From: Trypanosoma brucei
Lineage: Eukaryota
NCBI GenBank assembly: GCA_000002445.1
Contig: CM000208.1
Coordinates: forward strand, 2,720,001-2,784,000
Direction: 5' to 3'
Length of the DNA stretch: 64,000 nucleotides
The notes beneath the pieces are model-generated. The model did not search any database. It saw only the letters and a list, made by a program, of their open reading frames with translations, and was not told the origin of the DNA. A program made the position numbers and the translations under genes. Every line of letters starts with the position of its first letter. Position 1 is the first letter of the stretch. This document shows, piece after piece, positions 3,143 through 55,512 of this stretch.

Positions 3143-3198
3143 ACAACAACAACAACAAAGAAAAGCAAAAGGGTGTTCCGAAACAACAACAACAACAA
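3143..3198. repeat. two (CAA)5-6 blocks
   Basis: caacaacaacaacaacaa at 3143-3158 and again at 3183-3198. Confidence 0.9.
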
Positions 3199-4515
3199 TT
3201 GCATAAATGGAAGGCTTGTGTATATGTTTACCGTGAAGCAACGCGTTGGGTTTACCCGCCTTCCCGTATATTTATTCGTCACCATTAAAGAAAGGGAGAA
3301 GAAATATGAAAAAAAGAAATCCAAAGGGGATGAGGGATGACGTAACTGTTCTATGAATGCCCAACGTGAACACGTGCTCATGCACACACTTATATGTAGC
3401 AACAATTACAAACGAATACAAAAAAAAATAAGTATAAGTAAATAAACAACCACACACATATATATATATATATACGTTTTCCTGTAAGTTTAAAATACTT
3501 GTTTTAGGATTCATGGTAAGGAGAGAAAAGTTATATAATGATAACATGAATATACATATATGAATATGTACGCTTGTGGAGGAGGTGTGTGTGTGTGTGT
3601 GTGTGTGGGGAACCCTGGCAGCGGGAAAGTACATTAACTTTCCGGTGTAGTGGGGGTTATAAGTTTTTTTCTTTCTGTTTTCCCCTTTCACCCCCTTGTT
3701 GTTGTTCCCTTTTTTTTTTTGTTTAAGCTTGTGAATCAGTGGTGCCCTTCTCCATTGCCATCAGTATTGTAGGCGAAACGGTATTCCTATACTTTTGTTT
3801 TTCTTTCCTTTCTTGCAGTCCTTTCCCCTGTCTTCACTCACAACTGTTGTGTGATACATTTGATTACTTTTTTTTTCTTTCTTTTTAAATTTTGGCTGCA
3901 CTTCTTTCGCTCCATGTACAGGTTTACAGAAGGCAGTTTTCTTGGGAAAGAGTGTGTTACTTAATTTCTATGGTAAGTGAGTGAACAATGGATGATTATG
4001 ACGTCTCTAAGGTCGCGCACAGTCATTGCTGGCACACCGTAGCATTCCTTGAGGCATATCTTTTCTCTTGTCTAAAATTCCCCCCATTGCTGCGGCATTT
4101 ACTTGCTGGATTTCACCCTCATTCTTGCTTGTTACTCTTCTTCCTCTTTGTCTTCTCACTGTTTGTGTTTCCATGTGCCCTTTTTTAAAAAAATTATTTG
4201 TTGTATGTACCTTTTCAGGTATTGTGAGTGAATAACACATTAAACAAGCCAGAAATTAAGGGACGTGAACCTAATAGGGACACTCAAGGGAATTGGGGCG
4301 GGATAGTGTGGAGTGGTGAGACCCACTGAAGTGACGGCAATCCCTGAAGAAGAAAAAAAAAAGAGAAATAATTAAAGGTAACAAGGGCCACATAAACGCA
4401 TACGGAGACGTGCTGCGACTTTGCCGGTGTGCCTTCTTAGATTTAGCGTATCCTGGAGTGTGCATTTGACTCCTATCGGACTTGCTTTCTTTTGGTCAGA
4501 GACAAAGAAGAAAAC

Positions 4516-31261: not shown

Positions 31262-34200
31262 ATGAATAGGTCGCCCGTAAATTTTTCAGAAAAAAATGCG
31301 CATGGTGATGAACCCGTCACAGCTCCACGGGTGAAGCAGTATGGTGGTGTGGAGCCTCGGGACATGTACAGCTTACCGAGTGTGTCTGTCCGCTCAACTC
31401 CGGCCCTTATGACTTCAGTTGACAGTTGCAACCGCTCTCCGCAGTGTCGACGGCCTTCCCTGACGCCACGCCACACATGTAACGCGGTGTTTGCTGGAAC
31501 GCAGGCACACGGTGAGCGAAAAGACAGACGCTTGATGGTGCTTGCCCCACCAAAGGAATCAGATGGGCCGCGTTGTATCCGGCTTGCGCCAAATGGAACG
31601 TTAGGATCTGTTCATTTTGAATCTACGAATGCTACCGGGAACCGGGACACTGCAGCAGGCGAGGAAGGTTTGGATGAAAGCGGAGCGTACTCCCAAAGTT
31701 CGGATGTGCCACCGCTCGAAGAGCAACTTTGTTTGGAGGACCTGCAGCGGCTCATGCTGGTCTTCTCTTCCACTCCCAGTTTACCCCCCGTCAATGACGA
31801 TGCTTCTTTTGAGAGGATGACTGATTTTCGTCGCTGCGGCGCTGCTCTTCCCAGTCAGGCCAATTCTAGTTGCACGAACACGGAAACAAACGTAAAAGAG
31901 GATCAATCACAGGGTGAGCAAGCGGCATCTGTAGAGGAGAACGTGGGAAAGGCAGGGTCACTTGTGCCCAAGCGCTCTTTTATCGTAGAAAGAAGAAACA
32001 AACCTCGCGGTGCCTTGACGGTTAACTCGCGCAGTGGGCTAAAGTTCGTGTTTGAGAATAAAGAAGAGCTGCAGCGAGTCCTTACACAGGCTTGGGACTG
32101 CAACCAAAACTTTGACAGAACATACTCCCGCGCTCTCAGTGAGGACGAGTTTTCTCAGGCGGTCAGGCGCTTAGTGCCCGCTGCGGGGGATGACGAGATT
32201 ATGGACCTGATGAAGAGGGTAGACTACGAGGCGAAGGGAACTATCAGTTGGGATGATTTTGCTACTTTTCTGGTTTCTCAAGGGAGACACCACTCCAACC
32301 TTTCCCAGGGGACATTTGGTGAGTTTAGCAACGTGCCTGATCCGGAATCTTGTTTCCCGTCTCAGCAGCACGTGAATGGTACGTGCATGGAGGCAGATGG
32401 GCAGCGTAATATCTTACTTACAGGTGGATCGGAGGGGACCGTGCGCGCATGGAACCTTAATACACTCGCTAGCTGTGGTGTTGTCTTCAGTGGGGACTGT
32501 TGGGTTGTCGGCGTTCATTGGGCAAATCATATTCAGGGCATTATAATTGTAACGATGGATCGGCGGGTGATGATTCTGGACTCCAAAACCCTGGAGGTCC
32601 GGCGCCTGTTTCGTGGTCGCCCGGTTGTAGACACATTCGAGGGTTATATGTATGCACACGACAGTGTGGAGACGGTCCGAGTTGGGGCATCGGTGGGGTC
32701 AAAGTCGGGGAAGTTAGGTAACCGCAACGGTGGCCTACCTGGGCGTCCATCGCAGAGGAAGAAAGATGTTGATGGCAGCGGGAAGCCAAAACCAGCGCCA
32801 GGGACAGGCAACATGTTTGGGGGTACCGCTAAAGGTTCTTGTGTGCAGTGCCACGTCGAGGAGTGCACCTTTGCTGGTTTAGTGGATGCTGTGACTTGTT
32901 CTCTTTACCACCGCACGGCGTCAAACGAGGATATGCTGCTTTTGGCCACGGCAGGAGGGGAGGTGCGATTCTACTCAATTCCACGGACAACAAAGCGGGT
33001 TGTCACACCTCATGTTGTCCTCTTGTTACACGAGAAGCGGATTAACAAGATGAGCATCTTTTACAACTCCAATGCATTACTAACTGCTTCCGATGATGGT
33101 TATGTCAAAATGACTTCATTTGACACGGGCGGGATGCTGCGGACGTTTCCCACCTCTGGCCCGTCACCACACGCGGCGGTACACGACTTCGACATCAATC
33201 CAAATCTGAGAATGCTTGTTACAGTGGGACCAGAACGCCACGGCATTGTCTGGGATCTCTCCCTCGACGTACCGATGGCCACACTTGATTCCCACAACGG
33301 CCCATGTCGATGCTGTGCGATGCAACTTGATCAGAGACAAATTGTGACGGTTGGGGCTGATGGGGTCATATTTATTTTTGAAGCACAAGGTTTTCGCCTA
33401 ATACAAATCATTGGAGTTGACCGCCTTCATCCCCAGCGTGTAGTCTCCGACCCACTGAGAAAGCGTATCATATGCCTTGCTGCGTTTCCCTATTCTCACG
33501 GTCGGAACCGAAACATGGCTTTGGCTTACTCCTCTAAATATAAGGGTCACATGGCTCCAATGGTGGGAGTTATGTATAGTGCCATCCATGATTTGATAAT
33601 TACCGTCGACTCAGAGGGTTTGGTCATGACTTGGAAGCGAGCTACTGGTGGCTCCTCATTCACCTTTCAGATCAAAGAGTTCTCGGACTCTGCTGTTATG
33701 AATGCGGCCAGGCTCACATGTTTTGCCCTCGACAAACTTGAGCGTCGGCTTCTAACGGGGTTTAATAATGGGGCCGCAGCAGTATGGAATTTAATGAACG
33801 GGCAGACAACAAACGTTATCACGGCTGCTGCGGAGGGCACCCAGCCTAGCACCGTTGCTCCTGGCGTGACTGCGCTTGGTACACTTATGCGTGAAGGTCT
33901 TACCTTTTTTATCTTTGCTGCGGGAGGGTGTCTTTATTCTACAAGGGAGTCCAGCACATTTACTATTGCAAGCGCGTCGAAATGGGAGGTTCCAGCGCAT
34001 TTCGGAGAAGTTCTTCATATAATGGCCGTATCGCCGCACTGCATTGTTTGCGGTACCTCTTACGGTGCGCTGTTTTTCTATCGCGTTTTGGCTGAGCGGC
34101 AGGAAGGCTCTGTTTTGTGGGTGATGGAAACTGTCGACATGTTGGCACGCTCGACTTGTAATGTTTCTGAAGCACGGCGTGGCGAACAACCTAGCACCGC

Positions 34201-36355
34201 CACCACTTCGCGCATCGTTAAGATATTTCCTCTGCGTACTGTCGGTGAACATATCCTAATGTCTGTTCACGCAGACGGCACTGTAGCTCTGTGGCACACA
34301 CTGCGGCGTACAATGATGGGGGTTGTAAGCTTGCGATCTGCTTTTCCCGTAAAGGGCCTTGAAGTGGGTCTGACGCACGCAGCAGCGGACACCGGTGGAC
34401 AGTACTTCGTGTTTTCAGATGAGCAGGGTAACATTCATGTGTGCAGTATTCTGCTGCGCGAGACACGCGACGATGCCTCCATGTTTGAGACGTGTGTCAC
34501 TTTGGTGCACGATGATGATAAGAAACCTACTGTCAGTTGGCCGGGATCCCCTTTTTGTACTGACGGAGTTCCACCTGTTTTCGGGCCAATGGACGGCGTA
34601 ACATGTGGGGGGGATGATGCTGCGAACTCCTCTGGGGAGGTAAAGCAGCAAACTGGGTCTTTGCGACCAAGATCACTGGACACAGAGAAGACCCTCTATA
34701 CGTTTAGCCGATTCCGCCGTGAATACGTGTTTCATTGTGGGTTTAATGCGGTGACTGGTCTTGCCCTGGTGGATGACCCCAAGGAGATCACTGTGCGGAC
34801 ATATGGGCAGGAACCAGAGGAGGCTGCAGGGCAGGACGTTGGAGAGGAGGATTGTTCTGATATCGGTGGGTTGCATCTTGGAGCCTCAACCAGCTCTCTT
34901 TGTGACGTTGACAGCACGCAGAATTTGCTTTTACCCTCTGTAGATCTCTCGTCCACAATGATGATCACAGTGTCTTCCGGAGTAGATAACCTCACCAGGG
35001 TGTTCATGTTAGATGGTTTAATAGTTGGTGAGTGTGGGATGAACACGTGGGTCGCGGGGAAGGAGTCAACGTACCAGTTTCTTAGTGTCAAACCGTCTAG
35101 GAGGCTACCTCCTCACTCCTGCAGTGCCGATCCTATAAATTTTCTGGCAGAAGCCTTGTCGTCGGATAAGGCTGGCGCCTCAAAGCAGATGCGCAGCAAC
35201 TGGAATTCAAGGGGAGGCGTTCCCCGGTCCGACTGCCAAACTGGACAAGACAATGCTGCATCGGTTATATGTGAGGCTGGGTTGCCTACCTTTCAGAATA
35301 TTGGTGTAGCATTGGTAGATAGTGCTGGTGGTGAGCGCACCCCGATGGTCCAATTAAGCAGTGATCCTGTCGAACGGGAGCCATCGGTAAAACCGCAGCA
35401 ACAAAGCTGTCAGATACAGGGAGAAGAACCAGGCTCTGATAAAGTGCAGGGGGCTGCATCACCAAGGGCGCTTTCCACTTTTATGAGGCCGCAACGATCC
35501 CGTGAAGCGATGCTCAAGGGTCTGGTGAAACCCAAATTTATTAATGCCTTACGCGGAATACCAGTGGAGGAAGGAGGGGAGGAGTTGGCGTCCTTCATTA
35601 TTAGCCCGGTGTCAAGAAGCGGTGGGAAGAAGCAGCACCGAGCTGACCAGGCGAGTGAGCACTCACACACCCTTTATTCAAGAAATGGAAGCGCCATTAA
35701 CCAAACGCCTGCTTCAGTGCGCCACGCAACAGAGTTAAGTGTCTCAGAAGTGCAGCAAAGCGGGGCGCAGGATGGTCGGCCAGTGCCTTCGCAACCCGCC
35801 CTTGCGGCTGGGCTCCCCACTCCGCACCAGGCAAGCCGCCAGCTGAGAACTCACTCGTGGGCAGTCCAGGGACGAAGGTGTCCTACAACTTCGCACGACG
35901 TAGACACGACACCTGCACTCACTAAGACACACGCGGGACCCCACCAATCGTCTGGTGGTGGAGTTAATAACGTCTCGTTGGAGGGGGACACATCACCCCG
36001 TGGGGCTCTGCACGAGCATATCGATTCGCGGCGTCGGCATTTGCTTTCGCTTGGGTGTAAGGACCCTGTGGTCCTTGCAGTGCCTTGTACTACAAACACC
36101 AACACCAAGGGGGAATCTACAGCGGTGAGTGGATCTGATCGTAAACGTAACACGGCTTCTGGTTCAACTGCTCTGTTACGTCGAATACAGGGTAACTCTA
36201 TTTTAGAGGCGAGGTCTCGTGTTGCGCAGATAACTTCCAGGCTATTGATGGCGCCCGTTGAAGAAATTGTGCCACCAAAGGGAACACGCGTTAAGGAGCA
36301 GACAACCGCATGGAAGAATGTGGTTAAGAACGCAACCAGCGCCTCACAACAATAA
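31262..36355 (+). CDS. giant WD40-repeat protein (~1697 aa) with an N-terminal EF-hand-like segment
   Basis: EF-hand-like region DEFSQAVRRLVPAAGDDEIMDLMKRVDYEAKGTISWDDFATFLV. Multiple WD-like blades follow: LLTGGSEGTVRAWNL, LLATAGGEVRFYSI, LLTASDDGYVKMTSFDTG, LVTVGPERHGIVWDLS, IVTVGADGVIFIFE, LIITVDSEGLVMTWK, ILMSVHADGTVALWH. The polypyrimidine tract at 31123-31176 precedes the ATG. Confidence 0.75.
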   Translation: MNRSPVNFSEKNAHGDEPVTAPRVKQYGGVEPRDMYSLPSVSVRSTPALMTSVDSCNRSPQCRRPSLTPRHTCNAVFAGTQAHGERKDRRLMVLAPPKESDGPRCIRLAPNGTLGSVHFESTNATGNRDTAAGEEGLDESGAYSQSSDVPPLEEQLCLEDLQRLMLVFSSTPSLPPVNDDASFERMTDFRRCGAALPSQANSSCTNTETNVKEDQSQGEQAASVEENVGKAGSLVPKRSFIVERRNKPRGALTVNSRSGLKFVFENKEELQRVLTQAWDCNQNFDRTYSRALSEDEFSQAVRRLVPAAGDDEIMDLMKRVDYEAKGTISWDDFATFLVSQGRHHSNLSQGTFGEFSNVPDPESCFPSQQHVNGTCMEADGQRNILLTGGSEGTVRAWNLNTLASCGVVFSGDCWVVGVHWANHIQGIIIVTMDRRVMILDSKTLEVRRLFRGRPVVDTFEGYMYAHDSVETVRVGASVGSKSGKLGNRNGGLPGRPSQRKKDVDGSGKPKPAPGTGNMFGGTAKGSCVQCHVEECTFAGLVDAVTCSLYHRTASNEDMLLLATAGGEVRFYSIPRTTKRVVTPHVVLLLHEKRINKMSIFYNSNALLTASDDGYVKMTSFDTGGMLRTFPTSGPSPHAAVHDFDINPNLRMLVTVGPERHGIVWDLSLDVPMATLDSHNGPCRCCAMQLDQRQIVTVGADGVIFIFEAQGFRLIQIIGVDRLHPQRVVSDPLRKRIICLAAFPYSHGRNRNMALAYSSKYKGHMAPMVGVMYSAIHDLIITVDSEGLVMTWKRATGGSSFTFQIKEFSDSAVMNAARLTCFALDKLERRLLTGFNNGAAAVWNLMNGQTTNVITAAAEGTQPSTVAPGVTALGTLMREGLTFFIFAAGGCLYSTRESSTFTIASASKWEVPAHFGEVLHIMAVSPHCIVCGTSYGALFFYRVLAERQEGSVLWVMETVDMLARSTCNVSEARRGEQPSTATTSRIVKIFPLRTVGEHILMSVHADGTVALWHTLRRTMMGVVSLRSAFPVKGLEVGLTHAAADTGGQYFVFSDEQGNIHVCSILLRETRDDASMFETCVTLVHDDDKKPTVSWPGSPFCTDGVPPVFGPMDGVTCGGDDAANSSGEVKQQTGSLRPRSLDTEKTLYTFSRFRREYVFHCGFNAVTGLALVDDPKEITVRTYGQEPEEAAGQDVGEEDCSDIGGLHLGASTSSLCDVDSTQNLLLPSVDLSSTMMITVSSGVDNLTRVFMLDGLIVGECGMNTWVAGKESTYQFLSVKPSRRLPPHSCSADPINFLAEALSSDKAGASKQMRSNWNSRGGVPRSDCQTGQDNAASVICEAGLPTFQNIGVALVDSAGGERTPMVQLSSDPVEREPSVKPQQQSCQIQGEEPGSDKVQGAASPRALSTFMRPQRSREAMLKGLVKPKFINALRGIPVEEGGEELASFIISPVSRSGGKKQHRADQASEHSHTLYSRNGSAINQTPASVRHATELSVSEVQQSGAQDGRPVPSQPALAAGLPTPHQASRQLRTHSWAVQGRRCPTTSHDVDTTPALTKTHAGPHQSSGGGVNNVSLEGDTSPRGALHEHIDSRRRHLLSLGCKDPVVLAVPCTTNTNTKGESTAVSGSDRKRNTASGSTALLRRIQGNSILEARSRVAQITSRLLMAPVEEIVPPKGTRVKEQTTAWKNVVKNATSASQQ

Positions 36356-36783
36356 CGGGACTGACAGCCAGATATGCTGAGCTAGGTCTTTTCTTTCAGG
36401 TTCCCATCTTTTTTTTGTTTCCTTCCTTTCCTTTCCTTTACGTAGCGTCGTGCTTTTGAGATGTAAAGTGGACTGTGTCAAAATCTTTCCTTTTCCTCCC
36501 CGTTTTCGACTTTTATTTATTGTTTCCATACCACAAGTTAGTCTGACCTTCTTACTCATTTGCGTTGCACTCCTTCTCAGTGCCCCGTGTCGTGATGGAG
36601 TGTGTATTTGTCTGTAGAAGGAAGAATTCTATGTTTTGCTGCCCTTTTGGTGCTGGTGTCTGGCCGCTGCGTGCATTGGATAGCGTGCCTTTCTTGTTTC
36701 CTCTTCCTTCTACTTTTTGCTCCCCTTCTCAGAAGAGTACCAAAGGCATAAATTCACTTGAATTCACGCGCAGTTTTGGATGC

Positions 36784-36826
36784 ACATACACACACACACA
36801 AACACAAACAGACAAACAAACACACA
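36784..36826. repeat. (CA)n/(CAAA)n microsatellite
   Basis: cacatacacacacacacaaacacaaacagacaaacaaacacaca. Confidence 0.9.
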
Positions 36827-37520
36827 TGTGATCACTTGGTGACGGGTGTCTTTAGGGGTATGTCTTAGGCACGTTCATATGGATGAGTGATGTCGTGTGG
36901 CGTTCTATTCTGAATTTTACACTAGCGGTGTCCCGAAATTGGGGTAAAAGGTGGTGAGTGATAAGAGGTGAAGGTGCCCATAATAGTTAAATAGAAATTT
37001 GGGAAAGGGGAATGGTACGGGTGAGTGGAGGTTGTGCTTGGAGGAGAGTGGCCCGATGCATCGGAGGTGGCGAACATGTAGGTAAGGGAGCAGTTAGGTG
37101 GTCAGGTTGGTATGGCAAATCCCACACCACTTGGCAGTCGATTCCTTCAGGGACGTGCGATTTATCTCCCCCTTTCCTCAGCCGTGCAGGTAACCGACAT
37201 AAAATAAAGAAACGTTTCCTTTTAGCATATTCTCGCGTCGGTGTCTCAGTACTCGTGCGGGGTTTCCATCCCCTTTGCTTGCTCCCACGAAAATTGTTGA
37301 TTTAAAGTTTTTTCAATTCTGTGTTCAAGTGCCTGATTTTTGCTATAGGAAAGAGGGTAAACGACAGTTCAGCAACTCTCCGACCGCGGTCACCAGGGAA
37401 AAGACAAGTTAACATCAGATAATAATAACGAGCAGCACTCTAGAGAGGAATATATAAGACACACGAGCCACGGGAACAGCAAGGGTTAAAAGAACCCTAC
37501 CTACGTATAGCATTTTCACA

Positions 37521-38807
37521 ATGAAGCCAATTATAAAGTCGATCCTTGATACAGATGCGTACAAGTTACACATGCAGCAGGCTGTCTTTCATTTCTATCC
37601 CACAATTCACGTTGTTTACGAGTTTCAGTGCCGCAGTTCGGAGAACAAATTGGGTGATGCTGCAGATGCTATTCGAGAGCAGGTAGACCTCATGCGGCAC
37701 GTTGCCTTGACAGATGATGAATATGCTTACCTCTCAACCAAACGTTACCTCAAAAAGGATTACCTTGACTGGCTTCGTGAGTACAGGTTCAAGCCAGATC
37801 AAGTCATTATTGATGCTGTTCCGAAGACTCGGTGCAACGGGGAGACGAATATAACGTATCGGGAGCTCGCCATCACAATCAAAGGTCCATGGGTGGAAAC
37901 TATATTATGGGAAGTGCCGTTACTAGCGATTGTGTGTGAAGTAGTGCATAGCAAGCGGACGCAACATATTGGGGCTGCCGAGGCAGTTGAACACCTCAAT
38001 GCGAAGTTGGATAAACTTTTTGCTACATACGTGAATGGTGAACTAGACATGTTTCGGGTCACGGATTTTGGGACACGACGGCGCTACAGCTTCGATGTGC
38101 AGGAAGCCATTGTCAGGACGTTGCAGTCGCATCCATCATTTGGACGGAACTTTTCTGGCACGAGCAATTACCATTTGGCGATGAAGCTGGGTCTACCGGC
38201 GGTAGGGACGCAGGCACACGAGTGGTTTCAGGCCCATCAGCAGCTTTCCCCAGTTCTACGGGATTTCCAGCGCGTGGCTCTTAAGCAGTGGTTGCTAGAG
38301 TACCCTCAAGATCTTCACATCGCACTCACCGACTGTATTTCAATGGACGGTTTTCTGGGTGACTTTGATGCTGACCTCGCACAAGCGTACGTCGGCTTGC
38401 GGCACGATTCGGGTAATCCATATGTTTGGGGTCGCAAGGCCATTGAGCATTATAAGCGATTCAATATTGATCCGAAGTTGAAGACGCTTGTCTTTTCCGA
38501 TTCTCTTGACCTTGAGAGGGCCGCAAAACTGCATTGTACCTTTGCGCAGGAGTCAAATGTCATGTGTGGTATCGGAACCCAACTCACGTGCTCCATCCCC
38601 GGTGTGCAACCGCTGAGCATTGTGATTAAGATGACAGAATGCGATGGGAAGCCTGTTGCAAAGATATCTGATGAACCAGAGAAAACTACATTTAGGGATT
38701 TGGACTATGTTCAATTGTTAGGGCGAACATTCAATGTGGAATTGCAGGATATGATTGATGCGGGTTGTGGTAGGAGCGCTGTTCACCACCCAACACAGGT
38801 ACAATGA
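37521..38807 (+). CDS. pncB: nicotinate phosphoribosyltransferase, bacterial PncB type (NAD salvage)
   Basis: N-terminus MKPIIKSILDTDAYKLHMQQAVFHFYPTIHVVYEFQCR and the internal blocks GPWVETILWEVPLLAIVCE, FGTRRRYSFDVQEAIV, GTSNYHLAMKLGLPAVGTQAHEWFQAHQQ, GLRHDSGNP, LVFSDSLDL and GKPVAKISDEPEKTT follow E. coli-type PncB block for block (recalled from memory as LLDTDAYKLHMQQAVFHHY..., GPWREVILWEVPLLAV, FGTRRRFS, GTSNY.LA..L.L...GTQAHEWFQAHQQ, GLRHDSGDP, VFSD.LDL, GKPVAKLSDSPGKT). Length (428 aa) matches the bacterial enzyme. Confidence 0.93.
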   Translation: MKPIIKSILDTDAYKLHMQQAVFHFYPTIHVVYEFQCRSSENKLGDAADAIREQVDLMRHVALTDDEYAYLSTKRYLKKDYLDWLREYRFKPDQVIIDAVPKTRCNGETNITYRELAITIKGPWVETILWEVPLLAIVCEVVHSKRTQHIGAAEAVEHLNAKLDKLFATYVNGELDMFRVTDFGTRRRYSFDVQEAIVRTLQSHPSFGRNFSGTSNYHLAMKLGLPAVGTQAHEWFQAHQQLSPVLRDFQRVALKQWLLEYPQDLHIALTDCISMDGFLGDFDADLAQAYVGLRHDSGNPYVWGRKAIEHYKRFNIDPKLKTLVFSDSLDLERAAKLHCTFAQESNVMCGIGTQLTCSIPGVQPLSIVIKMTECDGKPVAKISDEPEKTTFRDLDYVQLLGRTFNVELQDMIDAGCGRSAVHHPTQVQ

Positions 38808-40429
38808 CAAAATTGGAAGGTTGAGCAAGTGCTCATGAATTCAAGAGAATAAGGAAGAGTCGCCGATGGTTTCTCCATATATTCCTTTTTTGTCTTTGGC
38901 TCTCTCGCCTAATTTGTTTGCTAATTTTAAAAATTTATCTTGTCTTGTTGGTATACGTTTTTTCATTTCATTTCATCTCTCAGTTTTTTTTTTTCGCTTA
39001 GGCACTTCACACGTATTTTTAAGGTATGGTTTTCACTTTGTTTTGCGTGTGCGTGTGTTTTGTGCTCGGATACTGGTGTTTACATGTAGCGCTGTGTGTT
39101 GAAACAGGGTATGTGTGTGGGGAAAACGCTGATTTTACATTGCTTCTCTCATTTGATGTTGTGCCGCTTGCTGCTGTTCGGCTTGAATCTGTTAATGCCT
39201 GTCCCTGCATCCCTGCGCTCCTCTTATCCGCATTGTACGCTCAATGGGAGCTTCACAGAGAGAAACATTAGGAGGAATGTTGTGGGATTGAAGGAAAGTG
39301 CTTCTTTTTCATTCTCTAACCATTATTTTCATCTTCAAGTGCCCTCGTGTGTCACTAGCATGAGGGACAAAGCACAATATGACGTGCCGAATGGCGGGGC
39401 GTATCGCTGAGAAGTTGTTGTCACGGCAATAATATGATGTGGATACGGTGCAGCACAGTAGTTGAGGGCATTGATAGAGTTGGGTGGATTATTTTCTTTT
39501 TCATTTTGCTTTCCCAGACACTGAAATGGGAGTCGGTGCGTGGCGCCAACACTACCCTCACTTGCGCCTCGTGAAGGTCTATCGTGTGACATATGGTGCT
39601 GCAAAGCTGTTCGGTCATTTATCCCTCTTCGCTCGGAAATTACCTTTCTTCCGCTGCTGTTCTGTGATCTTGGTAGCTCGTAAACACTTCAAAGTGCAAA
39701 ATTCCTAATCCTTATGGCCATGCAACTGCTCACTTTTTTTTTCTTCTTGATCGACGTCGGGCCGAAGCTTCTGCTATCCCTTCTAGAAGCGCGTGTATAC
39801 TTCTATATATTCTAACTATCGAGTAAAGGGTAATAATACTGCTGTCTGCACCACGACCTAATGAAAGCTTATGGAGAAAACCGAGACATGTAGAGGGGTC
39901 CTCAGTCGGTTGCCGCGCTTCCCCCTTCCGCTATTGTGGATACCCTCCTAAACAATCTTTCGTGTGCAACAATTCCCACACTTTTATTTTCTTTTTAAAT
40001 CAATGTTTATCAGCTCGGTGGCAACGTAGCGATAAGCTCGTGAGCGCAAATTGCCGTGCCTGCGCTCAGGCGTTAAGCATTTGTTATTTAATAGCGGTTC
40101 TAATAATATTTTTTGTTTCGTCTTTTTTGGTTTGCTGGGATGTGGCGCCGTGCATTCGTTTAGGACTCTACGCGCCCGCCCTTTGGGGAATCCGCGACAC
40201 GCAGTATATGTGAGGGAAATTTGATATTCGCTATCCCGTTGCATTCATTCTAGAATAGTGACGAGGGAAAGAGGTTAGGGGGAACAGTTGGGCGGTTTGC
40301 TTGGTTCTATCGAATAACTGCCACTTTTCTCCTCCCATCTTTTAGTTGACGTACTTTTCTTCGATTTCCTTCACCATTTTTCAGTGTTCCCTTCCTCTTC
40401 GCTCTCTCCTTTTATTATGAAATAGAGTG

Positions 40430-42229
40430 ATGGAGTATTCGTCAGATGCAGTGTTGAATGGATATGCTTTACTAGTTTGGTGTGCTCCATCTGTTAAAGA
40501 GGAGGGGGATACTTTTTTGCGTGCTTTCTTCTTGCGGCGCTTTCAAGGGACAGTGGCCGCTTCACCCGCCAGTATTGTTTTCGCAACGCCCAATGGTTCA
40601 CATAAAACCACCTTTTGGGGTGCCGATGGCGAAGGGGGTGCGGAGCCCCCCGACCGTGGAAGCGAGGCGTTGGTATTTTTCCGCGAGCGAGAGGGGGTTA
40701 AAATTGTTTTGTCAGGCATCGTTCAGCGCATACTGCATGAGAAGGAGCCACACAGCGGGGTAGAGCTGCTGCGTGGGTATGTGTTCTTGGGTACTGATCG
40801 TTTGTTAGTTGAAGGTGTTTTTCACCCGACGAGTTGCGCTGTGGGTGCGGGGGGAACAGAAGTCAGTGGGAGAGCCAATACGTCAGGTAGTGATGACAGC
40901 TTGTGGAGACGGCGAGTGTGCACCGACTCATGCTCACAATCATTAATGGGTTGGGGTCAACCGCGGGCTGAAGTTGTCGGAATGGGACGGGACGAGACTG
41001 TTGATTATAATCGCGTTACTGATTCTTACCTGGGAGGTGGAGGAGACTTTGCCGCCACTCCTTCCCAGGGTTGTGATAATAAGAATCATAGTGACCCCCA
41101 GTGCAATTCTTACCATGGGAAATCGAGAGAACACAATCGTGGGGGACGTATTGTTTTGCGCGTGACATTTGTGTGCTTGCTCGGCCGCTGCAAGGGTCTG
41201 CACGAGGGCGGGCACGGTGGTTGCCACTCAACTGGTGTCTCCACCCACGTTGTTTTTAAACTTCTGCGTGGTACTTGCTTCCCGCGGGGCATTATTATGT
41301 TTCCTCCGAGATTACTTGGTTGTACCGATGGGGTTATGGGCGGGGATGGGGCCTGGGGGGTTGATGCCGTCGTGGAAGTGGAGGATGCGGAGGCTGCAAA
41401 TTCCGTTGTTGATTCTTTCGACGGTTCCTTACTCGAGCTCGTAAAACCAGGCCCAAACTCAGACGAAGTGGAGTTTAGGTTTCGTTTGTTTGTGCGCGAG
41501 GACCGGCCTGGGGTGGAGCAGAAGCTTTCAATTCCATTCAACACTGAGTCAGAGTTAAGCATAACTCCAAGTAACTTGCTTCAGATGGGTGGGTCGTTTC
41601 GTTGTGAAAAGTATTCCGTCGAGCCAGCTGATACGGCAGCCAACGGGAGGTGGAACGCTGCTGTGGTACGTGCAAATGGCATAGCCGATAATCTTGTAGG
41701 GTTGGGGAGTATACAACATTTTTCAAGGGACCTAGCCCCTGGTCACCAGGGGATGAATTATGGGCACGACGCAGGCCTTAGCCGATCCCCTGAGCGGGGC
41801 TACGATAGCGTGCAGCGAAGCCGAAATCGCAGTCGAGGGCGGAGTCGGAGCCGGAGCCGAAGTCGAAGCCGCAGACGTGCTCGAAGGCGGGACCGGAGCC
41901 GCAGCCAACACCGAAGCCGAGTTCGCAGCCGCAGCCGCAGCCGCAGCGGGCGACGGGGGCGCCGGCGAGCTCACGGTCGAAGTCGAAGTCGAAATCGCAG
42001 TCGAGGGCGGAGCCGAATCCGAACTCGTGGCCGTAAGCGAAGTCGTAGCTCTAGCCGTGGCTCTTGGTACAGCTACAGCTCTGCCTCCAACTCTGATCGC
42101 AGCCGTAGTCGCAGTCCTAGTTTGAGTCGCAGTCGAACACGGAGTAGTGGAAAAGCTCGTAGGAGCGAGAATGTTGGTGACGATGAAATAAGTAAGAAAT
42201 GTGCTCTTACCCATCACCGTTATCAATAG
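40430..42229 (+). CDS. Arg/Ser-repeat (RS-domain) protein with a ~120-aa C-terminal RS/RSRS tract. No canonical RRM is evident.
   Basis: The C-terminus is RSRNRSRGRSRSRSRSRSRRRARRRDRSRSQHRSRVRSRSRSRSGRRGRRRAHGRSRSRNRSRGRSRIRTRGRKRSRSSSRG...SRSRSPSLSRSRTRS. The track start 40427 is a GTG, and the ATG is at 40430. The N-terminal ~470 aa are non-repetitive with only weak RNP1-like hints (LRGYVFLG). The coding DNA carries an internal near-exact direct repeat (cgaaatcgcagtcgagggcggag at about 41820 and about 41988). Confidence 0.7.
   Translation: MEYSSDAVLNGYALLVWCAPSVKEEGDTFLRAFFLRRFQGTVAASPASIVFATPNGSHKTTFWGADGEGGAEPPDRGSEALVFFREREGVKIVLSGIVQRILHEKEPHSGVELLRGYVFLGTDRLLVEGVFHPTSCAVGAGGTEVSGRANTSGSDDSLWRRRVCTDSCSQSLMGWGQPRAEVVGMGRDETVDYNRVTDSYLGGGGDFAATPSQGCDNKNHSDPQCNSYHGKSREHNRGGRIVLRVTFVCLLGRCKGLHEGGHGGCHSTGVSTHVVFKLLRGTCFPRGIIMFPPRLLGCTDGVMGGDGAWGVDAVVEVEDAEAANSVVDSFDGSLLELVKPGPNSDEVEFRFRLFVREDRPGVEQKLSIPFNTESELSITPSNLLQMGGSFRCEKYSVEPADTAANGRWNAAVVRANGIADNLVGLGSIQHFSRDLAPGHQGMNYGHDAGLSRSPERGYDSVQRSRNRSRGRSRSRSRSRSRRRARRRDRSRSQHRSRVRSRSRSRSGRRGRRRAHGRSRSRNRSRGRSRIRTRGRKRSRSSSRGSWYSYSSASNSDRSRSRSPSLSRSRTRSSGKARRSENVGDDEISKKCALTHHRYQ
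41815..42015 (+). repeat. internal direct duplication within the RS-domain coding region (the unit contains cgaaatcgcagtcgagggcggag)
   Basis: The same ~23-nt string occurs at about 41820 and about 41988. The surrounding sequence is imperfect (CGN-AGC)n-like Arg/Ser codon repeats. This generates the artefactual antisense ORFs 41732..42250 and 41760..42125. Confidence 0.7.
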
Positions 42230-43122: not shown

Positions 43123-43812
43123 ATGGTGAATCATTTAGTTGTATTGATCGGCTCAGACGGCAAACGAGCGACGGTGAGTCGCACAGCAGCGACTCATGCA
43201 TCGCTGCTCCTCCGCGATCTGCTGGATGGGAGGGAACCCAACACAACTGTGGTGGAGGGGAAAAGCGGAGTGGAACATGTAAGCAATTCCGACATTTTTG
43301 AGGGTCTCGTGGCGGACAAGGAGGTCGCAGTACCAGCCATTGAGATACCTTTTACTCACGCTACTGGATCCCTCTTGCAACGGATTTGTGCTCACATGAC
43401 GTATAGATATGATTATCGCCCACCAAACGGGGGTGTTGAAGGTTCGACAGTACTTTTTGAGCCTGTTGCAAGGGAACATAGGGCTACTTTTTCATGTGGC
43501 GGGGGTTACGGCAGGAATGTGATGCCTGAGATTCCCCGGCCCATGGTGCTTCCGCTAGTGGACTACTTGGATTCTTTTGACAAGCGGTTTATTGAAGATT
43601 GGGATGAAATTACAACGGTACAGATGGTAAAGTTGGCGACATTGCTGAATTACGAAGAGTTGCTGAACTTAGCGTCCGCCAAACTGGCTGTGTATTTGTC
43701 TGAGAAGTCCATTGAGGGGTTACGAGCCTTTCTTGGCGTGGAGAATGACTTCAAGGCTGAAGAAGAGGCTGAACTCAGGAAAGAGTACGGAAGAATGTCA
43801 GAGGAGAAGTAG
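43123..43812 (+). CDS. Skp1-family protein (divergent SCF ubiquitin-ligase adaptor-like)
   Basis: Skp1 C-terminal dimerisation signature WDEITTVQMVKLATLLNYEELLNLASAKLAVYLSEKSIEGLRAFLGVENDFKAEEEAELRKEY (compare W.D.EFL.VD...LFELILAANYL.IK.LLD..CK.VA.MI.GK.PEEIRKTFNI.NDFT.EEE..IR.EN). N-terminal POZ-like start VVLIGSDGKRATVSRTAATHASLLLRDLLDG. Confidence 0.75.
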   Translation: MVNHLVVLIGSDGKRATVSRTAATHASLLLRDLLDGREPNTTVVEGKSGVEHVSNSDIFEGLVADKEVAVPAIEIPFTHATGSLLQRICAHMTYRYDYRPPNGGVEGSTVLFEPVAREHRATFSCGGGYGRNVMPEIPRPMVLPLVDYLDSFDKRFIEDWDEITTVQMVKLATLLNYEELLNLASAKLAVYLSEKSIEGLRAFLGVENDFKAEEEAELRKEYGRMSEEK

Positions 43813-44201
43813 ACATGAGGGTGTGAGGCACACTTGTTTTTGCCGATGTGCGCGTATTCGAGAACCAGGTGTGGCGCGTGTTGACGGTGGAGGTGGTGGT
43901 GACGGCGGTATGGAAGGATTGCTGAAGTATGACCCAGTGTCCCCTTCGAAATTCTTCGTTTAATTTACAGAAGGGTGACATGATAGTGCTATGTTTCCCG
44001 CATTTGCTCAAGCGTTTACATTTAAAAAAAAATTGGTGTAAGCACGTCTATTCGCGTTGATATCGATGTGTTCTTTGCGTGTGCACGCGTCAATCGACAC
44101 AATCCAGGTGCTTAACGTGACCAACGCTCCCGATATCCCCCCGCAACCCTTTTTGCTTTGTCCGTTTAACCTTGTTTAGATATCTTTTTCTCCTGTTCGG
44201 T

Positions 44202-50779: not shown

Positions 50780-52534
50780 ATGATACAAATGCGTCTGTGA
50801 GGGCTGCTGGATTATAAGCGAATCGTGGTGAGGAAAGGTGGAGATTGAGGAAAAGCATATATTATAGGTGAACGGGCTCGTGCACGTGCTTGCAGTGCCA
50901 GTCAACTCCGGTATTACGTGGCGAGAACACGGGTGTGGTATTGATGCACTACCTCGTAGTGCCTAGGATGCTATTTCACAATCTATTCAGTTCTTTTTTC
51001 CCTCTTGGGTCTTCCCTTATCCTTCTTAAAAGGTATTGTGGCATTGCTTTAAGGTTTATTTACCTTCGCTGCCATTTCCATTTTGCCCGCTGCGCTCGAT
51101 AACGTTCGATTGTTATGATCACACAACTTTTTTGGGACCGTATTTTATACAGATCTGATTCTGCATGGTTTGGCCGCTGCAGCTTTTGATCCCCCATTAG
51201 TCCTTTTGTTTTTGTTTCCGTTCCATTATTTTATTTGACTTTGGGTGGACTTTCCTCCCTTCCCCTCTCTTATTGATACGCTCTCCCGTTCGTTCCACAT
51301 ATGTTTGTGTTACTTTTAGCCGTGGTGATGACATGTATTTGTGCTGTGACTAATTATTTCCGGAAAGATATTCATGTGATGGATTAGTAGATAAATTTAA
51401 ATCTTCACCTGGTGAGTACCCCCTTTTTTTGTTTATTTCTTTTGATCGTGTACTTCCCTCCCCCATACACAATACGCTCTTTTTTTTTTTTTACTTTTGT
51501 TGGTTTGTTCGTGGCATGAGTTTTATATCGATTTATCAGAGAATCAACCAATAACAAATACTTGTATGTATATGTTTACATGTATGTGCTTCCCTTTTAT
51601 ATGCATTTGTTTTACTTTGGAGAAGCTGGGACTCGCTTTCCGCTTCTTTTCTTTTAAAAGAAAAAAAAAGTAATTTCCTTGTACAGATGTTTTATTTTTG
51701 TCATGTTTGTTTTGTTTATTGTTATTTATTTTATTTTACAGTTTAGCGTGATTTCGTTTTTCTGACACGTGAAGGCCACCAACCCCTCCAAGAAGAAAAG
51801 GCACAGAAGATCAGAGAAACCAAAAAGAGAAAAAGGAAATAATAATAATAAAACAAAATAAAGGTGAATGTAAAGCGGAAAGATAATTTTTGGGGAGTTA
51901 ATGTGAGGAACTGAAGTGAGCAGACGCGGGACCTATTTATTCGTTCCTTTCATTATTATTTTCGTTTCTTACATTTCTGCGGTACTTCCCTTCATGTTTC
52001 ACGTCCGCTCGTCTCCATTCCCTTATTTATTTATTTCTTTTTGGTCTTTTCACTCCCTTTCCCTTTTCTATTACAAAAACAAATAACAAAAAACAATAAA
52101 AAAATTATGTTCATCGCCGCGTCGTAGTGTTGTTTACCATAACTTCCCTCTCCTTCTCCCCCTCCAAAAATATGAATGAATTACCTCTTTTTTTTTTTCC
52201 TGACGTCATGATGGGCCTTTCCATTTGTTACTTCCATTTTTATTTTATATATTTCTGTTGTTTACTTCATTTCACCATACTTATTTTCTACATTTACATG
52301 TTTTATTTTCGTGTATTTATGGTATATTCCACATTGCTATCTTATTACTTCATTTCTAACTGTGTTATTATTATTATTATTAAAGTTGTTGTTATTATTA
52401 TTATTATTTCAATGTATGTATCAAAGAAATAAATTATCAAACCAATAAGTGAATAGTTTTAATAGCTACAGCTTTGATACGCATTTTCGTGTGTCTATGA
52501 AAGGAAGCGAAGCAACATAAAGATAAAAAAAAAA

Positions 52535-52584
52535 GCAAAAGCAAAAGCAAAAGCAAAAAAAAAACAACAACAACAACAACAACA
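52535..52584. repeat. (GCAAAA)4 followed by (CAA)7
   Basis: gcaaaagcaaaagcaaaagcaaaaaaaaaacaacaacaacaacaacaaca. Confidence 0.9.
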
Positions 52585-53423
52585 CATATATGTTTCTTTA
52601 ATTCGTTTACATCTTCTTTTTTACGTGCGCATTCCATCACCTTTCATTCATTCAACTTTTTTTTCCATTTATTTACTTATTTTTATTTTATTTATTTTAT
52701 TTGGTCACCCTCTCAGTCACTTGCTTTTTATTTCTATCATCATTATTTACATGTATGTGCATGTGAAGATGTGCTGTTCACAAATGTGCGTGTGTGTTTA
52801 AATAAATATATAAATATATAAATGTATGTATTTGTATGTGTTGTGATGAATTTGAAATGTTGCGCCTTCGCAATTTAGTGTGGGGTCACTGCTGAGGAGT
52901 TGGGGAATTCTGTATGCAATTTGTGTTTTTGTTTGTTTAATTTATATTTTTACGCCTCTAATTTTATTTAAGTAATGATATAAGGGATATGTTTAAAAAT
53001 ATCTTTAGAAAACGCCAAACGAATGAATAAATGAATGAATGAGATAATTAAAATGTACGTACAATAGTGTATTTAATGAGCGAAGGCACGTTACTGTGTG
53101 GCATTAAGATGGCACGTAAAATCAAAACAAACAAACAAACAAATAATAATAATGATATGTATATATGTATTTGTATATTTAAAAGGGGTAAATGCGATTC
53201 GTGTGAGGGGTGGTGGTGGGAAATGTTTGGTAACGACAAACAAAAAGAGGGATACCAAGAATAGGTAAGCAAATAAATAAATAAATTAAAATAATAAAGG
53301 TAACTCTCTGGGGCCCGTGTCGGCAACCCAGGAAATAAAAAGTTAGTTTTATTCTTGTTATTTTATTTTCTCTTTTTATGCACTGTCACCGCTTAGCAGA
53401 GGCAAGCCCTTGTGCCGTTGCCC

Positions 53424-53424
<1 letters not shown>

Positions 53425-53452
<28 letters not shown>
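53425..53452. repeat. (ATT)9 microsatellite
   Basis: attattattattattattattattatta. Confidence 0.95.
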
Positions 53453-53454
<2 letters not shown>

Positions 53455-55401: not shown

Positions 55402-55444
55402 ATATATATATATATATATACGCATACGCAACCGCATATACATT

Positions 55445-55490
<46 letters not shown>

Positions 55491-55512
55491 TATTAATATT
55501 AATATATATATT
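55402..55512. repeat. long (TA)n/(TATTAA)n tract immediately upstream of the prenyltransferase-alpha gene
   Basis: (ta)n at 55402-55420 and 55452-55487, then tattaatattaatattaatatatata. Confidence 0.95.

What the first reader, a model, noticed from the sequence alone, without database searches (positions are those of the whole stretch)
37521..38807. Bacterial PncB-type nicotinate phosphoribosyltransferase in a eukaryotic gene array (candidate ancient HGT)
The 428-aa product aligns block for block, from its first residues (ILDTDAYKLHMQQAVFHFYP...) to its C-terminus (GKPVAKISDEPEKTT), with gamma-proteobacterial PncB as I recall the E. coli sequence. It does not resemble the longer animal/fungal NAPRT architecture. 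The gene sits inside an otherwise typical kinetoplastid gene array, between a WD40 giant and an RS protein. A bacterial-type NAD-salvage enzyme in a parasite is a potential selective drug target. Composition and codon usage look host-adapted, which argues for an old transfer rather than contamination.
Basis: partly seen in the sequence, partly recalled or inferred. Interest (0 to 1): 0.55.

Follow-up and report, generated by a model that had tools for sequence, protein, structure and literature searches.

The report
Bacterial-type NAD-salvage enzyme in trypanosomes

Summary
The ORF at 37521-38807 (+, 428 aa) is real. It is a full-length PncB-type nicotinate phosphoribosyltransferase (NAPRT): it passes the curated TIGR01514 and NF003704 cut-offs. 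It is 53% identical to E. coli K-12 PncB over 404 aa. The predicted structure superposes on Yersinia pestis NAPRT (TM 0.97).

The window is T. brucei-group DNA (100% to T. equiperdum). The gene lies in a one-strand kinetoplastid gene array, and its codon usage matches its neighbours. The order WD40 giant, NAPRT, one further gene, Skp1 is conserved in T. theileri, Leptomonas and three unnamed trypanosomatid lineages.

In my 178-taxon bootstrapped NJ tree:
- trypanosomatids are monophyletic (96.5%);
- they are sister to Enterobacterales (82.5%);
- that pair groups with Photobacterium (95.5%);
- yeast Npt1 (34% identity) is far away.

All 80 best loci among 185,579 prokaryotic species genomes carry Enterobacterales names except one (see full report). 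Human-type NAPRT is barely detectable (20 bits).

So the HGT interpretation is supported. However, Klein et al. 2013 (PMC3833962) already reported this transfer (ML bootstrap 93), and PMC11068527 (2024) already proposed NaPRT as a drug target.

Fungal Npt1 has the same architecture, and the quoted "C-terminus" motif sits at residues 376-390 of 428. Verdict: correct, ordinary, already known.

The parts
37521..38807 (+). Complete CDS (428 aa plus stop) of a PncB-type nicotinate phosphoribosyltransferase (NAPRT, EC 6.3.4.21)
   Evidence: ORF; Pfam NAPRTase_N + NAPRTase; TIGR01514 and NF003704 above their cut-offs; 100% identical to the T. equiperdum protein named NAPRT; 53% identical to E. coli PncB; AF2 model pLDDT 94.4, best PDB match Y. 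pestis NAPRT with TM 0.97
37545..37934 (+). N-terminal domain (residues 9-138), Pfam PF17767 NAPRTase_N
   Evidence: E = 1.4e-37; coordinates checked
37815..37850 (+). Trypanosomatid-specific insertion (residues 99-110, AVPKTRCNGETN) with no counterpart in E. coli PncB. It lengthens a beta-hairpin in the model.
   Evidence: Gap in the alignments to 3os4 and E. coli; mapped; strands E95-106 and E109-123 with pLDDT about 88. Other trypanosomatids carry an insertion of different sequence here.
38052..38741 (+). Catalytic domain (residues 178-407), Pfam PF04095 NAPRTase. Motifs DFGTRRR (182), GTSN (213), GTQAHEW (229), LRHDSG (293), FSD (325) and GIGT (350); all six strings are also present in E. 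coli PncB.
   Evidence: E = 5.6e-74; motifs; the same motifs in E. coli PncB; most of their residues invariant or nearly invariant across 50 sequences, though the H of LRHDSG (Q in most trypanosomatids) and the Q of GTQAHEW vary
38217..38219 (+). Codon for His233, which aligns with E. coli His220 (His219 of mature Salmonella PncB). This is the histidine autophosphorylated by ATP in the bacterial enzyme.
   Evidence: Alignment; invariant in 50 sequences; codon checked. The role of this histidine comes from my own knowledge of the Salmonella PncB literature. General support for ATP-dependent autophosphorylation in NAPRTs is in PMC10907753.
38745..38804 (+). Lineage-specific C-terminal tail (residues 409-428) without a bacterial counterpart, largely disordered in the model
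   Evidence: The alignments end at about residue 408; residues 414-428 have no E. coli counterpart; pLDDT below 50 for residues 422-428
37165..37329 (+). Upstream polypyrimidine tracts followed by AG dinucleotides (37165-37181, 37263-37286, AG at 37328-37329). These are candidate trans-splicing acceptor signals. This is inferred, not demonstrated.
   Evidence: Sequence read directly. The interpretation rests on general knowledge of kinetoplastid mRNA processing.
31262..36355 (+). Upstream neighbour: 1697-aa WD40/beta-propeller protein, a conserved syntenic partner
   Evidence: Pfam. A WD40 giant lies directly upstream of NAPRT in T. theileri, Leptomonas and two unnamed lineages; in L008 the upstream 1907-aa gene has no Pfam record (shown as '?').
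40427..42229 (+). The mechanical ORF starts at GTG; the true start is probably a later ATG.
   Evidence: Translation; no Pfam hit. A gene without Pfam hits occupies this position in the other trypanosomatids; its homology to this ORF was not tested.
43123..43812 (+). Skp1-domain protein, a syntenic marker downstream
   Evidence: Pfam PF01466; Skp1 at the same relative position in L002-L009

Best explanation
The gene encodes the trypanosome's nicotinate phosphoribosyltransferase, the first enzyme of the Preiss-Handler NAD-salvage route. It converts nicotinate plus PRPP to nicotinate mononucleotide. The reaction is driven by ATP hydrolysis through transient phosphorylation of a conserved histidine (His233 here).

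The gene is of bacterial origin. One copy of pncB from a gammaproteobacterium on, or close to, the stem of the Enterobacterales entered the nuclear genome of an ancestor of all sampled Trypanosomatidae. It has since been inherited vertically at a fixed chromosomal position. Over that time it acquired host codon usage, kinetoplastid-type intergenic signals, a short hairpin insertion and a C-terminal tail.

Shown here: family membership, fold, conservation of catalytic motifs, phylogenetic position, synteny and codon adaptation. Inferred: enzymatic activity, the ATP-coupled mechanism, and the pathway role. The pathway role rests on published evidence that trypanosomatids lack de novo NAD synthesis. 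The direction of the transfer is also inferred; a single transfer event is what the monophyly and the fixed chromosomal position indicate.
For: Family and function:
- Pfam NAPRTase_N + NAPRTase.
- TIGR01514 equivalog 460 bits against a cut-off of 269.55; NF003704 508 bits against 379.
- PDB 3os4 (Y. pestis NAPRT) E = 1.3e-129.
- AF2 model pLDDT 94.4, pTM 0.93, superposing on 3os4 with TMt 0.97 and rmsd 2.2 A.
- His233 and the key residues of the GTRRR, GTSN, GT.AHE, R.DSG and GT motifs are invariant across 50 kinetoplastid and bacterial sequences.

Bacterial affinity:
- 53% identity to E. coli K-12 PncB.
- 58.8% to Serratia, against 61.1% to the Leishmania tarentolae orthologue and 34% to yeast Npt1, on 380 shared columns.
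- Of the 80 best loci from 185,579 prokaryotic species genomes, all carry Enterobacterales names except one record titled Pseudomonas lundensis. Identity is a flat 52-57% across the order's genera.
- In the 50%-identity representative library, one trypanosomatid cluster is followed by Proteus (445 bits) and Photobacterium (412 bits), then 317 bits or less.
- NJ tree, 178 taxa, 380 columns, 200 bootstraps: trypanosomatids 96.5%, Enterobacterales 100%, the two together 82.5%, plus Photobacterium 95.5%.
- An independent published ML tree places trypanosomatids within Gammaproteobacteria with bootstrap 93 (PMC3833962).

Integration and age:
- One-strand gene array.
- The same WD40, NAPRT, unnamed gene, Skp1 order in T. 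theileri, Leptomonas pyrrhocoris and three unnamed lineages.
- The gene tree mirrors the split between Trypanosoma and the other trypanosomatids.
- RSCU correlation is 0.57 with neighbours and -0.07 with E. coli pncB.

Pathway context:
- Trypanosomatids lack de novo NAD synthesis and require nicotinate or nicotinamide (PMC3833962).
- The Preiss-Handler route is described as the exclusive route in Leishmania (PMC11068527, citing Gazanion 2011).
Against: No enzymatic assay or genetic test of this protein was found in the searchable literature. Activity is therefore inferred from homology.

My tree is a distance (NJ, Kimura-corrected) tree, not ML. The 82.5% node could be affected by the long trypanosomatid stem.

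Most of the 143 representative sequences in the tree are unnamed, so 'nested within Gammaproteobacteria' rests on the named anchors (E. coli and 11 other named Enterobacterales, Photobacterium, V. cholerae 4hl7, and 1yir, which I recall as P. aeruginosa) and on the published tree.

Eukaryotic PncB-type enzymes are represented in my tree by yeast alone.

Presence or absence in bodonids, diplonemids and euglenids could not be settled. The transfer could therefore be older than Trypanosomatidae.
Confidence: 0.93

Rival explanations
1. Vertical inheritance. The gene is the ancestral eukaryotic (for example mitochondrion-derived) NAPRT, and it looks enterobacterial only because it evolved slowly.
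For: Yeast Npt1 has the same two-domain fold (TM about 0.85) and matches over the full length (E = 2e-49). A PncB-type enzyme therefore does exist in at least one other eukaryotic lineage.
Against: Identity to Enterobacterales (mean 57.3%) is as high as Enterobacterales to Photobacterium (56.4%), and higher than Enterobacterales to the 1yir protein (52.7%). Yeast is at 34% from both groups. At least 148 clusters at 50% identity outscore yeast's PDB-search score (235 bits or more, against 172 bits; different searches, but bit scores do not depend on database size). The grouping with Enterobacterales plus Photobacterium has 95.5% support. The published ML tree gives 93%. A mitochondrial origin would predict alphaproteobacterial affinity, yet 1ybe, which I recall as being from Agrobacterium, scores only E = 2.5e-46.
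Confidence: 0.02
2. Bacterial contamination or assembly chimera. The ORF is a piece of enterobacterial DNA mis-assembled into a trypanosome contig.
For: The protein is more than 50% identical to proteins of common laboratory and gut bacteria.
Against: At 52-57% identity it matches no extant bacterium closely. Codon usage matches the neighbouring trypanosome genes and not E. coli pncB. The flanking intergenic DNA carries polypyrimidine tracts. Orthologues sit at the same syntenic position in independently assembled genomes of Trypanosoma, Leptomonas and others. More than 30 trypanosomatid clusters form one clade.
Confidence: 0.005
3. The donor was the betaproteobacterial endosymbiont (Ca. Kinetoplastibacterium) of symbiont-harbouring trypanosomatids, or another non-gammaproteobacterial symbiont. 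This would be endosymbiotic gene transfer.
For: Some trypanosomatids (Angomonas, Strigomonas) harbour a betaproteobacterium that itself has a pncB gene.
Against: The symbionts' own NAPRT groups within Alcaligenaceae (bootstrap 90 and 99), separately from the host gene (PMC3833962). The host gene is present in symbiont-free Trypanosoma, Leishmania and Leptomonas at a conserved locus. The nearest relatives are Enterobacterales.
Confidence: 0.01
4. Reverse direction. Enterobacterales acquired the gene from a kinetoplastid.
For: In an unrooted view, the sister relationship between trypanosomatids and Enterobacterales is symmetrical.
Against: Successive outgroups are all bacterial: Photobacterium, P0124 from a 3.9-Mb genome, the 1yir protein, and V. 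cholerae 4hl7. As far as it is resolved, the bacterial part of the tree follows gammaproteobacterial taxonomy. No other eukaryote is near.
Confidence: 0.01

Closest known systems
Enterobacterial PncB (E. coli b0931, Salmonella PncB; structure 3os4 from Yersinia pestis)
   Same: The two-domain architecture, length class and catalytic motifs are the same, including the histidine that aligns with E. coli His220. Identity is 53-59%. The predicted structure superposes with TM 0.97. The protein passes the TIGR01514 and NF003704 cut-offs.
   Different: The gene is encoded in a eukaryotic nuclear polycistronic array with host codon usage. It has a 12-residue hairpin insertion (residues 99-110) and a C-terminal tail of about 20 residues. 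It branches outside crown Enterobacterales, which are monophyletic at 100%.
Trypanosomatid NAPRT as described by Klein et al. 2013 (PLoS One 8:e79786, PMC3833962)
   Same: This is the same gene family and the same conclusion. Trypanosomatid NAPRT is monophyletic, groups within Gammaproteobacteria (ML 93, NJ 91), and has host-like GC content and codon usage in typical one-orientation contigs. The window gene is the T. brucei-group orthologue.
   Different: Nothing essential differs. This work adds denser current sampling: all best hits among 185,579 species genomes are Enterobacterales (one oddly titled record aside), there is a sister-to-crown placement, synteny was checked in five further lineages, and a structure model was made.
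Fungal Npt1 (S. cerevisiae YOR209C, PDB 1vlp)
   Same: It has the same PncB-type fold and domain order (TM 0.83-0.86) and matches over the full length at E = 2e-49. By general knowledge it has the same Preiss-Handler role.
   Different: Identity is only 30-34%. It is a separate, distant branch, with patristic distance 1.42 against 0.64 to E. coli. The trypanosome gene is not its orthologue by descent.
Human-type NAPRT (PDB 4yub, 538 aa; the TIGR01513 / E. faecalis 2f7f type)
   Same: It has the same overall reaction and the same type II phosphoribosyltransferase superfamily.
   Different: Sequence similarity is barely detectable: 4yub gives 20 bits, E = 0.0025, over residues 286-402 only. TIGR01513 gives 85 bits against a cut-off of 297. 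2f7f aligns with TM about 0.3. This distance underlies the selectivity argument.

Membership tests
PncB-type nicotinate phosphoribosyltransferase (TIGR01514 / NF003704) | Whole-protein score above the curated cut-off of the equivalog model | tested here: met
   TIGR01514 460 bits (cut-off 269.55); NF003704 508.2 bits (cut-off 379); both cover nearly the whole profile
PncB-type nicotinate phosphoribosyltransferase (TIGR01514 / NF003704) | Two-domain architecture: NAPRTase_N followed by the NAPRTase catalytic domain | tested here: met
   PF17767 at residues 9-138 and PF04095 at residues 178-407, both full-length on the profiles
PncB-type nicotinate phosphoribosyltransferase (TIGR01514 / NF003704) | Three-dimensional fold of solved PncB-type NAPRTs | tested here: met
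   AF2 model pLDDT 94.4. Foldseek against PDB: 3os4 TMt 0.97 with rmsd 2.2 A; 1yir 0.94; 4hl7 0.89; 1vlp 0.85
PncB-type nicotinate phosphoribosyltransferase (TIGR01514 / NF003704) | Conserved autophosphorylated histidine (His219 of mature Salmonella PncB) and surrounding motifs | tested here: met
   His233 in GTQAHEW aligns with E. coli His220 and is invariant in 50 sequences. The role of the residue is from my own knowledge of the literature.
PncB-type nicotinate phosphoribosyltransferase (TIGR01514 / NF003704) | Catalytic activity: nicotinate + PRPP (+ ATP) gives NaMN | not testable with these tools
   No biochemical study of a trypanosomatid NAPRT was found. PMC11068527 states that NaPRT 'has received less attention'.
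Human / Gram-positive type NAPRT (TIGR01513) | Score above the curated cut-off; chain of about 490-540 aa | tested here: not met
   TIGR01513 84.7 bits against a cut-off of 297.4; 4yub (538 aa) 20 bits; the query is 428 aa
Bacterium-to-eukaryote horizontal gene transfer | The recipient clade is nested among donor-group sequences with statistical support, away from other eukaryotes | tested here: met
   NJ bootstrap: trypanosomatids + Enterobacterales 82.5%, + Photobacterium 95.5%; yeast distant. Published ML 93.
Bacterium-to-eukaryote horizontal gene transfer | Physical integration in the host genome (not contamination): host flanks, synteny across species, host codon usage | tested here: met
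Bacterium-to-eukaryote horizontal gene transfer | Absence of the transferred type from sister eukaryotic lineages (bodonids, diplonemids, euglenids) | tested here: inconclusive
   No named non-trypanosomatid euglenozoan appears among the top 120 hits of the single-sequence search or the trypanosomatid-profile search. No extra cluster lies between the trypanosomatid and Proteus clusters. However, only the top hits are shown and most database entries are unnamed. Literature searches gave nothing.

The most novel reading that the evidence does not exclude
The transfer happened specifically on the stem of Trypanosomatidae, after the split from free-living bodonids. The donor was an insect-gut bacterium on the stem of the Enterobacterales. 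The gene replaced whatever NAPRT the euglenozoan ancestor had. On this reading, acquisition of the NAD-salvage enzyme coincided with the origin of obligate parasitism in insects and the loss of de novo NAD synthesis. My data are compatible with this: no bodonid, diplonemid or euglenid homologue appears among the top hits, the gene is sister to crown Enterobacterales, and synteny is fixed across all sampled trypanosomatids. They do not demonstrate it.
Probability: 0.3. Interest if true: 0.35.

Novelty: already known. Interest (0 to 1): 0.15.

Why it matters
Trypanosomatids cannot make NAD de novo and depend on the nicotinamidase, NAPRT, NMNAT, NAD synthetase route. Their NAPRT is of a bacterial lineage that is almost unrecognisable at sequence level from the human enzyme. 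That makes it a conceivable selective drug target.

It is also a clean textbook case of an old bacterium-to-protist transfer that has been fully domesticated. Both points are already in the literature (PMC3833962, 2013; PMC11068527, 2024). The practical value here is confirmation with much denser present-day sampling, not discovery.

Two things remain open. One is the biochemical and genetic validation of the enzyme in T. brucei. The other is the exact node of acquisition within Euglenozoa.

Tried and rejected
(1) I looked for deeper-branching Euglenozoa carrying the gene. A trypanosomatid-only profile search turned up five unnamed Logan-assembly proteins (P0313-P0316, P0318) scoring between named trypanosomatids and bacteria. 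Their contigs show the same trypanosomatid synteny, and they branch inside crown Trypanosomatidae. They are therefore not bodonids, and the timing question stays open.

(2) Literature searches for NAPRT or nicotinamidase together with Bodo saltans returned only irrelevant papers.

(3) I searched for biochemical characterisation of a trypanosomatid NAPRT. None was found.

(4) The AT-rich 52-56 kb region was checked for tandem repeats, Rfam families and ORFs. Nothing structured turned up, and it is unrelated to the finding.

(5) I considered a third database search seeded with yeast Npt1 to enlarge the eukaryotic outgroup. I rejected it as poor value, because the top 120 hits would be fungi only and the pairwise and structural distances already answer the question.

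(6) No ML tree program was available, so I wrote an NJ/bootstrap routine instead.
Full report
**1. Observation**

The window contains an ATG-initiated ORF at 37521..38807 on the + strand, encoding 428 aa. ILDTDAYKLHMQQAVFHFYP is at residues 8-27 and GKPVAKISDEPEKTT is at residues 376-390. The second string is therefore not the C-terminus. Homology with bacterial PncB runs to about residue 408 and is followed by a lineage-specific tail of about 20 residues.

All ORFs of 400 aa or more in the 64-kb window lie on the + strand. This is the hallmark of a kinetoplastid polycistronic array.

The protein is 100% identical to a database protein named nicotinate phosphoribosyltransferase of Trypanosoma equiperdum. 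The window is therefore T. brucei-group DNA.

- a 1697-aa WD40/beta-propeller protein upstream at 31262-36355;
- an ORF with a long Arg/Ser-rich C-terminal region downstream at 40427-42229;
- then a Skp1-domain protein, a P-type cation ATPase and a PSP1-domain protein.

**2. What the protein is**

- Pfam finds the two NAPRT domains in order: PF17767 at residues 9-138 and PF04095 at residues 178-407.
- NCBIfam places it above the curated cut-offs of TIGR01514 (460 bits against 269.55) and NF003704 (508 bits against 379). TIGR01513, which to my knowledge covers the human and Gram-positive type, reaches only 85 bits against a cut-off of 297.
- Against solved structures, the ranking is as follows (with organism names where it gives them). 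The organisms of 1yir (Pseudomonas aeruginosa) and 1ybe (Agrobacterium) are from my recollection of the PDB entries, not from a tool output.

| PDB entry | Organism | E-value |
|---|---|---|
| 3os4 | Yersinia pestis | 1.3e-129 |
| 1yir | not given by the tools | 2.5e-104 |
| 4hl7 | Vibrio cholerae | 1.3e-87 |
| 2im5 | Porphyromonas gingivalis | 4.8e-52 |
| 1vlp | S. cerevisiae Npt1 | 2.1e-49 |
| 1ybe | not given by the tools | 2.5e-46 |

- I fetched the real E. coli K-12 pncB (b0931) as L001. BLASTP gives 53% identity over 404 residues, E = 5e-152.
- An AlphaFold2 model built on a 50-sequence alignment has mean pLDDT 94.4 and pTM 0.93. Its best PDB match is Y. pestis NAPRT, with TM 0.97 normalised on the target and rmsd 2.2 A.
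- The motifs DFGTRRR, GTSN, GTQAHEW, LRHDSG, FSD and GIGT are present.
- His233 aligns with E. coli His220 and is invariant across 50 kinetoplastid and bacterial sequences. From my knowledge of the Salmonella PncB literature, this is the histidine (His219 of the mature protein) that ATP transiently phosphorylates to drive the reaction. PMC10907753 supports the general statement that ATP-dependent autophosphorylation is a property of NAPRTs and NAMPTs.
- Relative to E. coli, the trypanosome protein has a 12-residue insertion (residues 99-110). The model shows it as a lengthened beta-hairpin. It also has the C-terminal tail.

**3. Where it comes from**

In the 5.8-billion-protein database, the best hits after the identical protein are about 30 trypanosomatid clusters at 56-68% identity. 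These include Trypanosoma, Leishmania, Leptomonas, Herpetomonas, Angomonas, Strigomonas and Phytomonas. They are followed immediately by Enterobacterales at 54-57%, including Budvicia, Serratia, Pragia, Pectobacterium, Yersinia and Enterobacter.

An exhaustive HMMER scan of 1.84 billion 50%-identity representatives gives the following:
- one trypanosomatid cluster at 565 bits;
- two clusters at 445 and 412 bits, which are Proteus and Photobacterium;
- a short 281-aa fragment (P0123) at 326 bits, then a drop to 317 bits or less.

A scan of one genome for each of 185,579 bacterial and archaeal species returned 80 best loci. All carry Enterobacterales names except one record titled Pseudomonas lundensis. 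Identity is a flat 52-57% across genera that span the order, such as Serratia, Pectobacterium, Enterobacter, Proteus, Pragia and Pantoea.

I aligned 178 sequences. The set comprised 20 trypanosomatids, E. coli, 11 other named Enterobacterales, two unnamed Enterobacterales-like proteins (P0033, P0034), Photobacterium, four PDB anchors including yeast Npt1, and 139 full-length 50%-cluster representatives. I kept 380 well-occupied columns and ran NJ on Kimura-corrected distances with 200 bootstraps. The results were:
- trypanosomatids monophyletic, 96.5%;
- Enterobacterales monophyletic, 100%;
- trypanosomatids + Enterobacterales, 82.5%;
- that clade + Photobacterium, 95.5%.

The next outgroups are an unnamed bacterial sequence, the 1yir protein and the Vibrio cholerae enzyme.

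On the shared columns, T. brucei NAPRT is 58.8% identical to Serratia PncB. That is almost as close as to the Leishmania tarentolae orthologue (61.1%), and compares with 34.0% to yeast Npt1. The mean trypanosomatid-Enterobacterales identity (57.3%) equals the Enterobacterales-Photobacterium identity (56.4%).

The donor was therefore a gammaproteobacterium on, or near, the stem of the Enterobacterales.

**4. It is a resident gene, and an old one**

- Codon usage: GC3 is 0.516. The RSCU correlation with the other 18 window genes is 0.57, within their own range of 0.27-0.77. E. coli pncB correlates at 0.30 with the window genes and at -0.07 with the trypanosome gene.
- The upstream intergenic region carries polypyrimidine tracts followed by AG. 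This is as expected for trans-splicing signals, though that reading is an inference.
- The order (large WD40 gene), NAPRT, (gene without Pfam hits), Skp1 recurs in T. theileri, Leptomonas pyrrhocoris and three unnamed Logan-assembly lineages. In one of these (L008), the large upstream gene has no Pfam record.
- The gene tree reproduces the split between Trypanosoma and the remaining trypanosomatids.

A single acquisition before the last common ancestor of the sampled Trypanosomatidae, followed by vertical descent, explains all of this.

**5. Rivals**

- Vertical eukaryotic ancestry is contradicted by the tree, and by the 57% against 34% identity contrast.
- Contamination is excluded by synteny across genera and by codon usage.
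- Transfer from the betaproteobacterial endosymbiont of Angomonas and Strigomonas is excluded because the symbionts' own NAPRT groups in Alcaligenaceae, and because symbiont-free genera carry the gene at the same locus.
- Reverse transfer is implausible because successive outgroups are all bacterial.

**6. Comparison with what is known**

This exact result is published. Klein et al. [quoted passage not shown]
- trypanosomatid NAPRT is monophyletic (bootstrap 100);
- it groups within Gammaproteobacteria (93 ML, 91 NJ);
- it sits in typical one-orientation contigs;
- it has host-like GC content and codon usage.

The drug-target idea is also in print. A 2024 prioritisation study ranked the Leishmania NaPRT group 8th of 6502. 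It noted that the enzyme has received little attention and needs characterisation (PMC11068527).

The animal type is indeed remote: 4yub (538 aa) gives 20 bits over about 115 residues. Fungal Npt1, however, is a PncB-type enzyme with the same fold (TM about 0.85, 30% identity). It differs by lineage, not by architecture.

**7. What remains open**

Klein et al. noted that no dating is available for these bacterial acquisitions, and called for study of more distant, free-living Kinetoplastida. I tried to resolve this. A trypanosomatid-only profile search found no named bodonid, diplonemid or euglenid protein among the top 120. The only new sequences turned out to be crown trypanosomatids by synteny and by tree position. 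That is suggestive of absence outside Trypanosomatidae, but not conclusive.

No biochemical or genetic study of a trypanosomatid NAPRT was found.

**8. Verdict**

The finding is a correct rediscovery of a published HGT and a published target proposal.
- Novelty: already known.
- Interest: low (0.15).
- Most novel reading not excluded: the transfer coincided with the origin of trypanosomatid parasitism in insects and came from a gut enterobacterial-lineage donor (probability about 0.3, interest if true about 0.35).

Noticed in passing
window 51000-55500: An AT-rich, gene-free gap of about 4.7 kb (GC 0.30-0.34, against about 0.50 elsewhere) lies between the PSP1-domain gene and the next ORF at 55542. 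It contains only short simple repeats ((TTA)n, (ATT)n, (AT)n). There is no Rfam hit and no ORF of 125 aa or more. It is unusually long and AT-rich for an intergenic region inside a one-strand array. Its function is unknown.
   Followed up: partly
window 2001-4000: A second low-GC stretch (GC 0.38) lies between the first two large ORFs. It was not examined.
   Followed up: no
window 36780-36830: A (CA)n / (CAAA)n microsatellite sits in the intergenic region between the WD40 gene and NAPRT.
   Followed up: no
L023 (JAWQUI010000015.1): A record titled 'Pseudomonas lundensis strain I31' carries an Enterobacterales-like pncB, 55% identical to the query and ranked among Serratia and Enterobacter. 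This is probably a mislabelled or contaminated assembly, or a recent bacterial transfer.
   Followed up: no
L004-L009 (Logan SRR22803260, SRR22803246, SRR29272344, SRR29272310): Unnamed trypanosomatid lineages with very compact intergenic regions form their own NAPRT clade. It is sister to the Leishmaniinae, Phytomonas, Strigomonadinae and Herpetomonas group. Two divergent versions (P0314, P0316) co-occur in the same two samples, which suggests mixed infections or two species.
   Followed up: partly
window 43812-44172, compared with L003, L004 and L006: Leptomonas and the unnamed lineages have a small rhodanese-domain gene directly after Skp1; in L004 and L006 the P-type ATPase follows it. The T. 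brucei window has no such ORF at that position, and T. theileri also shows none there.
   Followed up: no
window 40427-42229: The mechanical ORF of the RS-rich neighbour starts at GTG. The N-terminal part has no Pfam hit, and the true start is probably a downstream ATG. The C-terminal 150 residues or so are almost pure Arg/Ser repeats.
   Followed up: no
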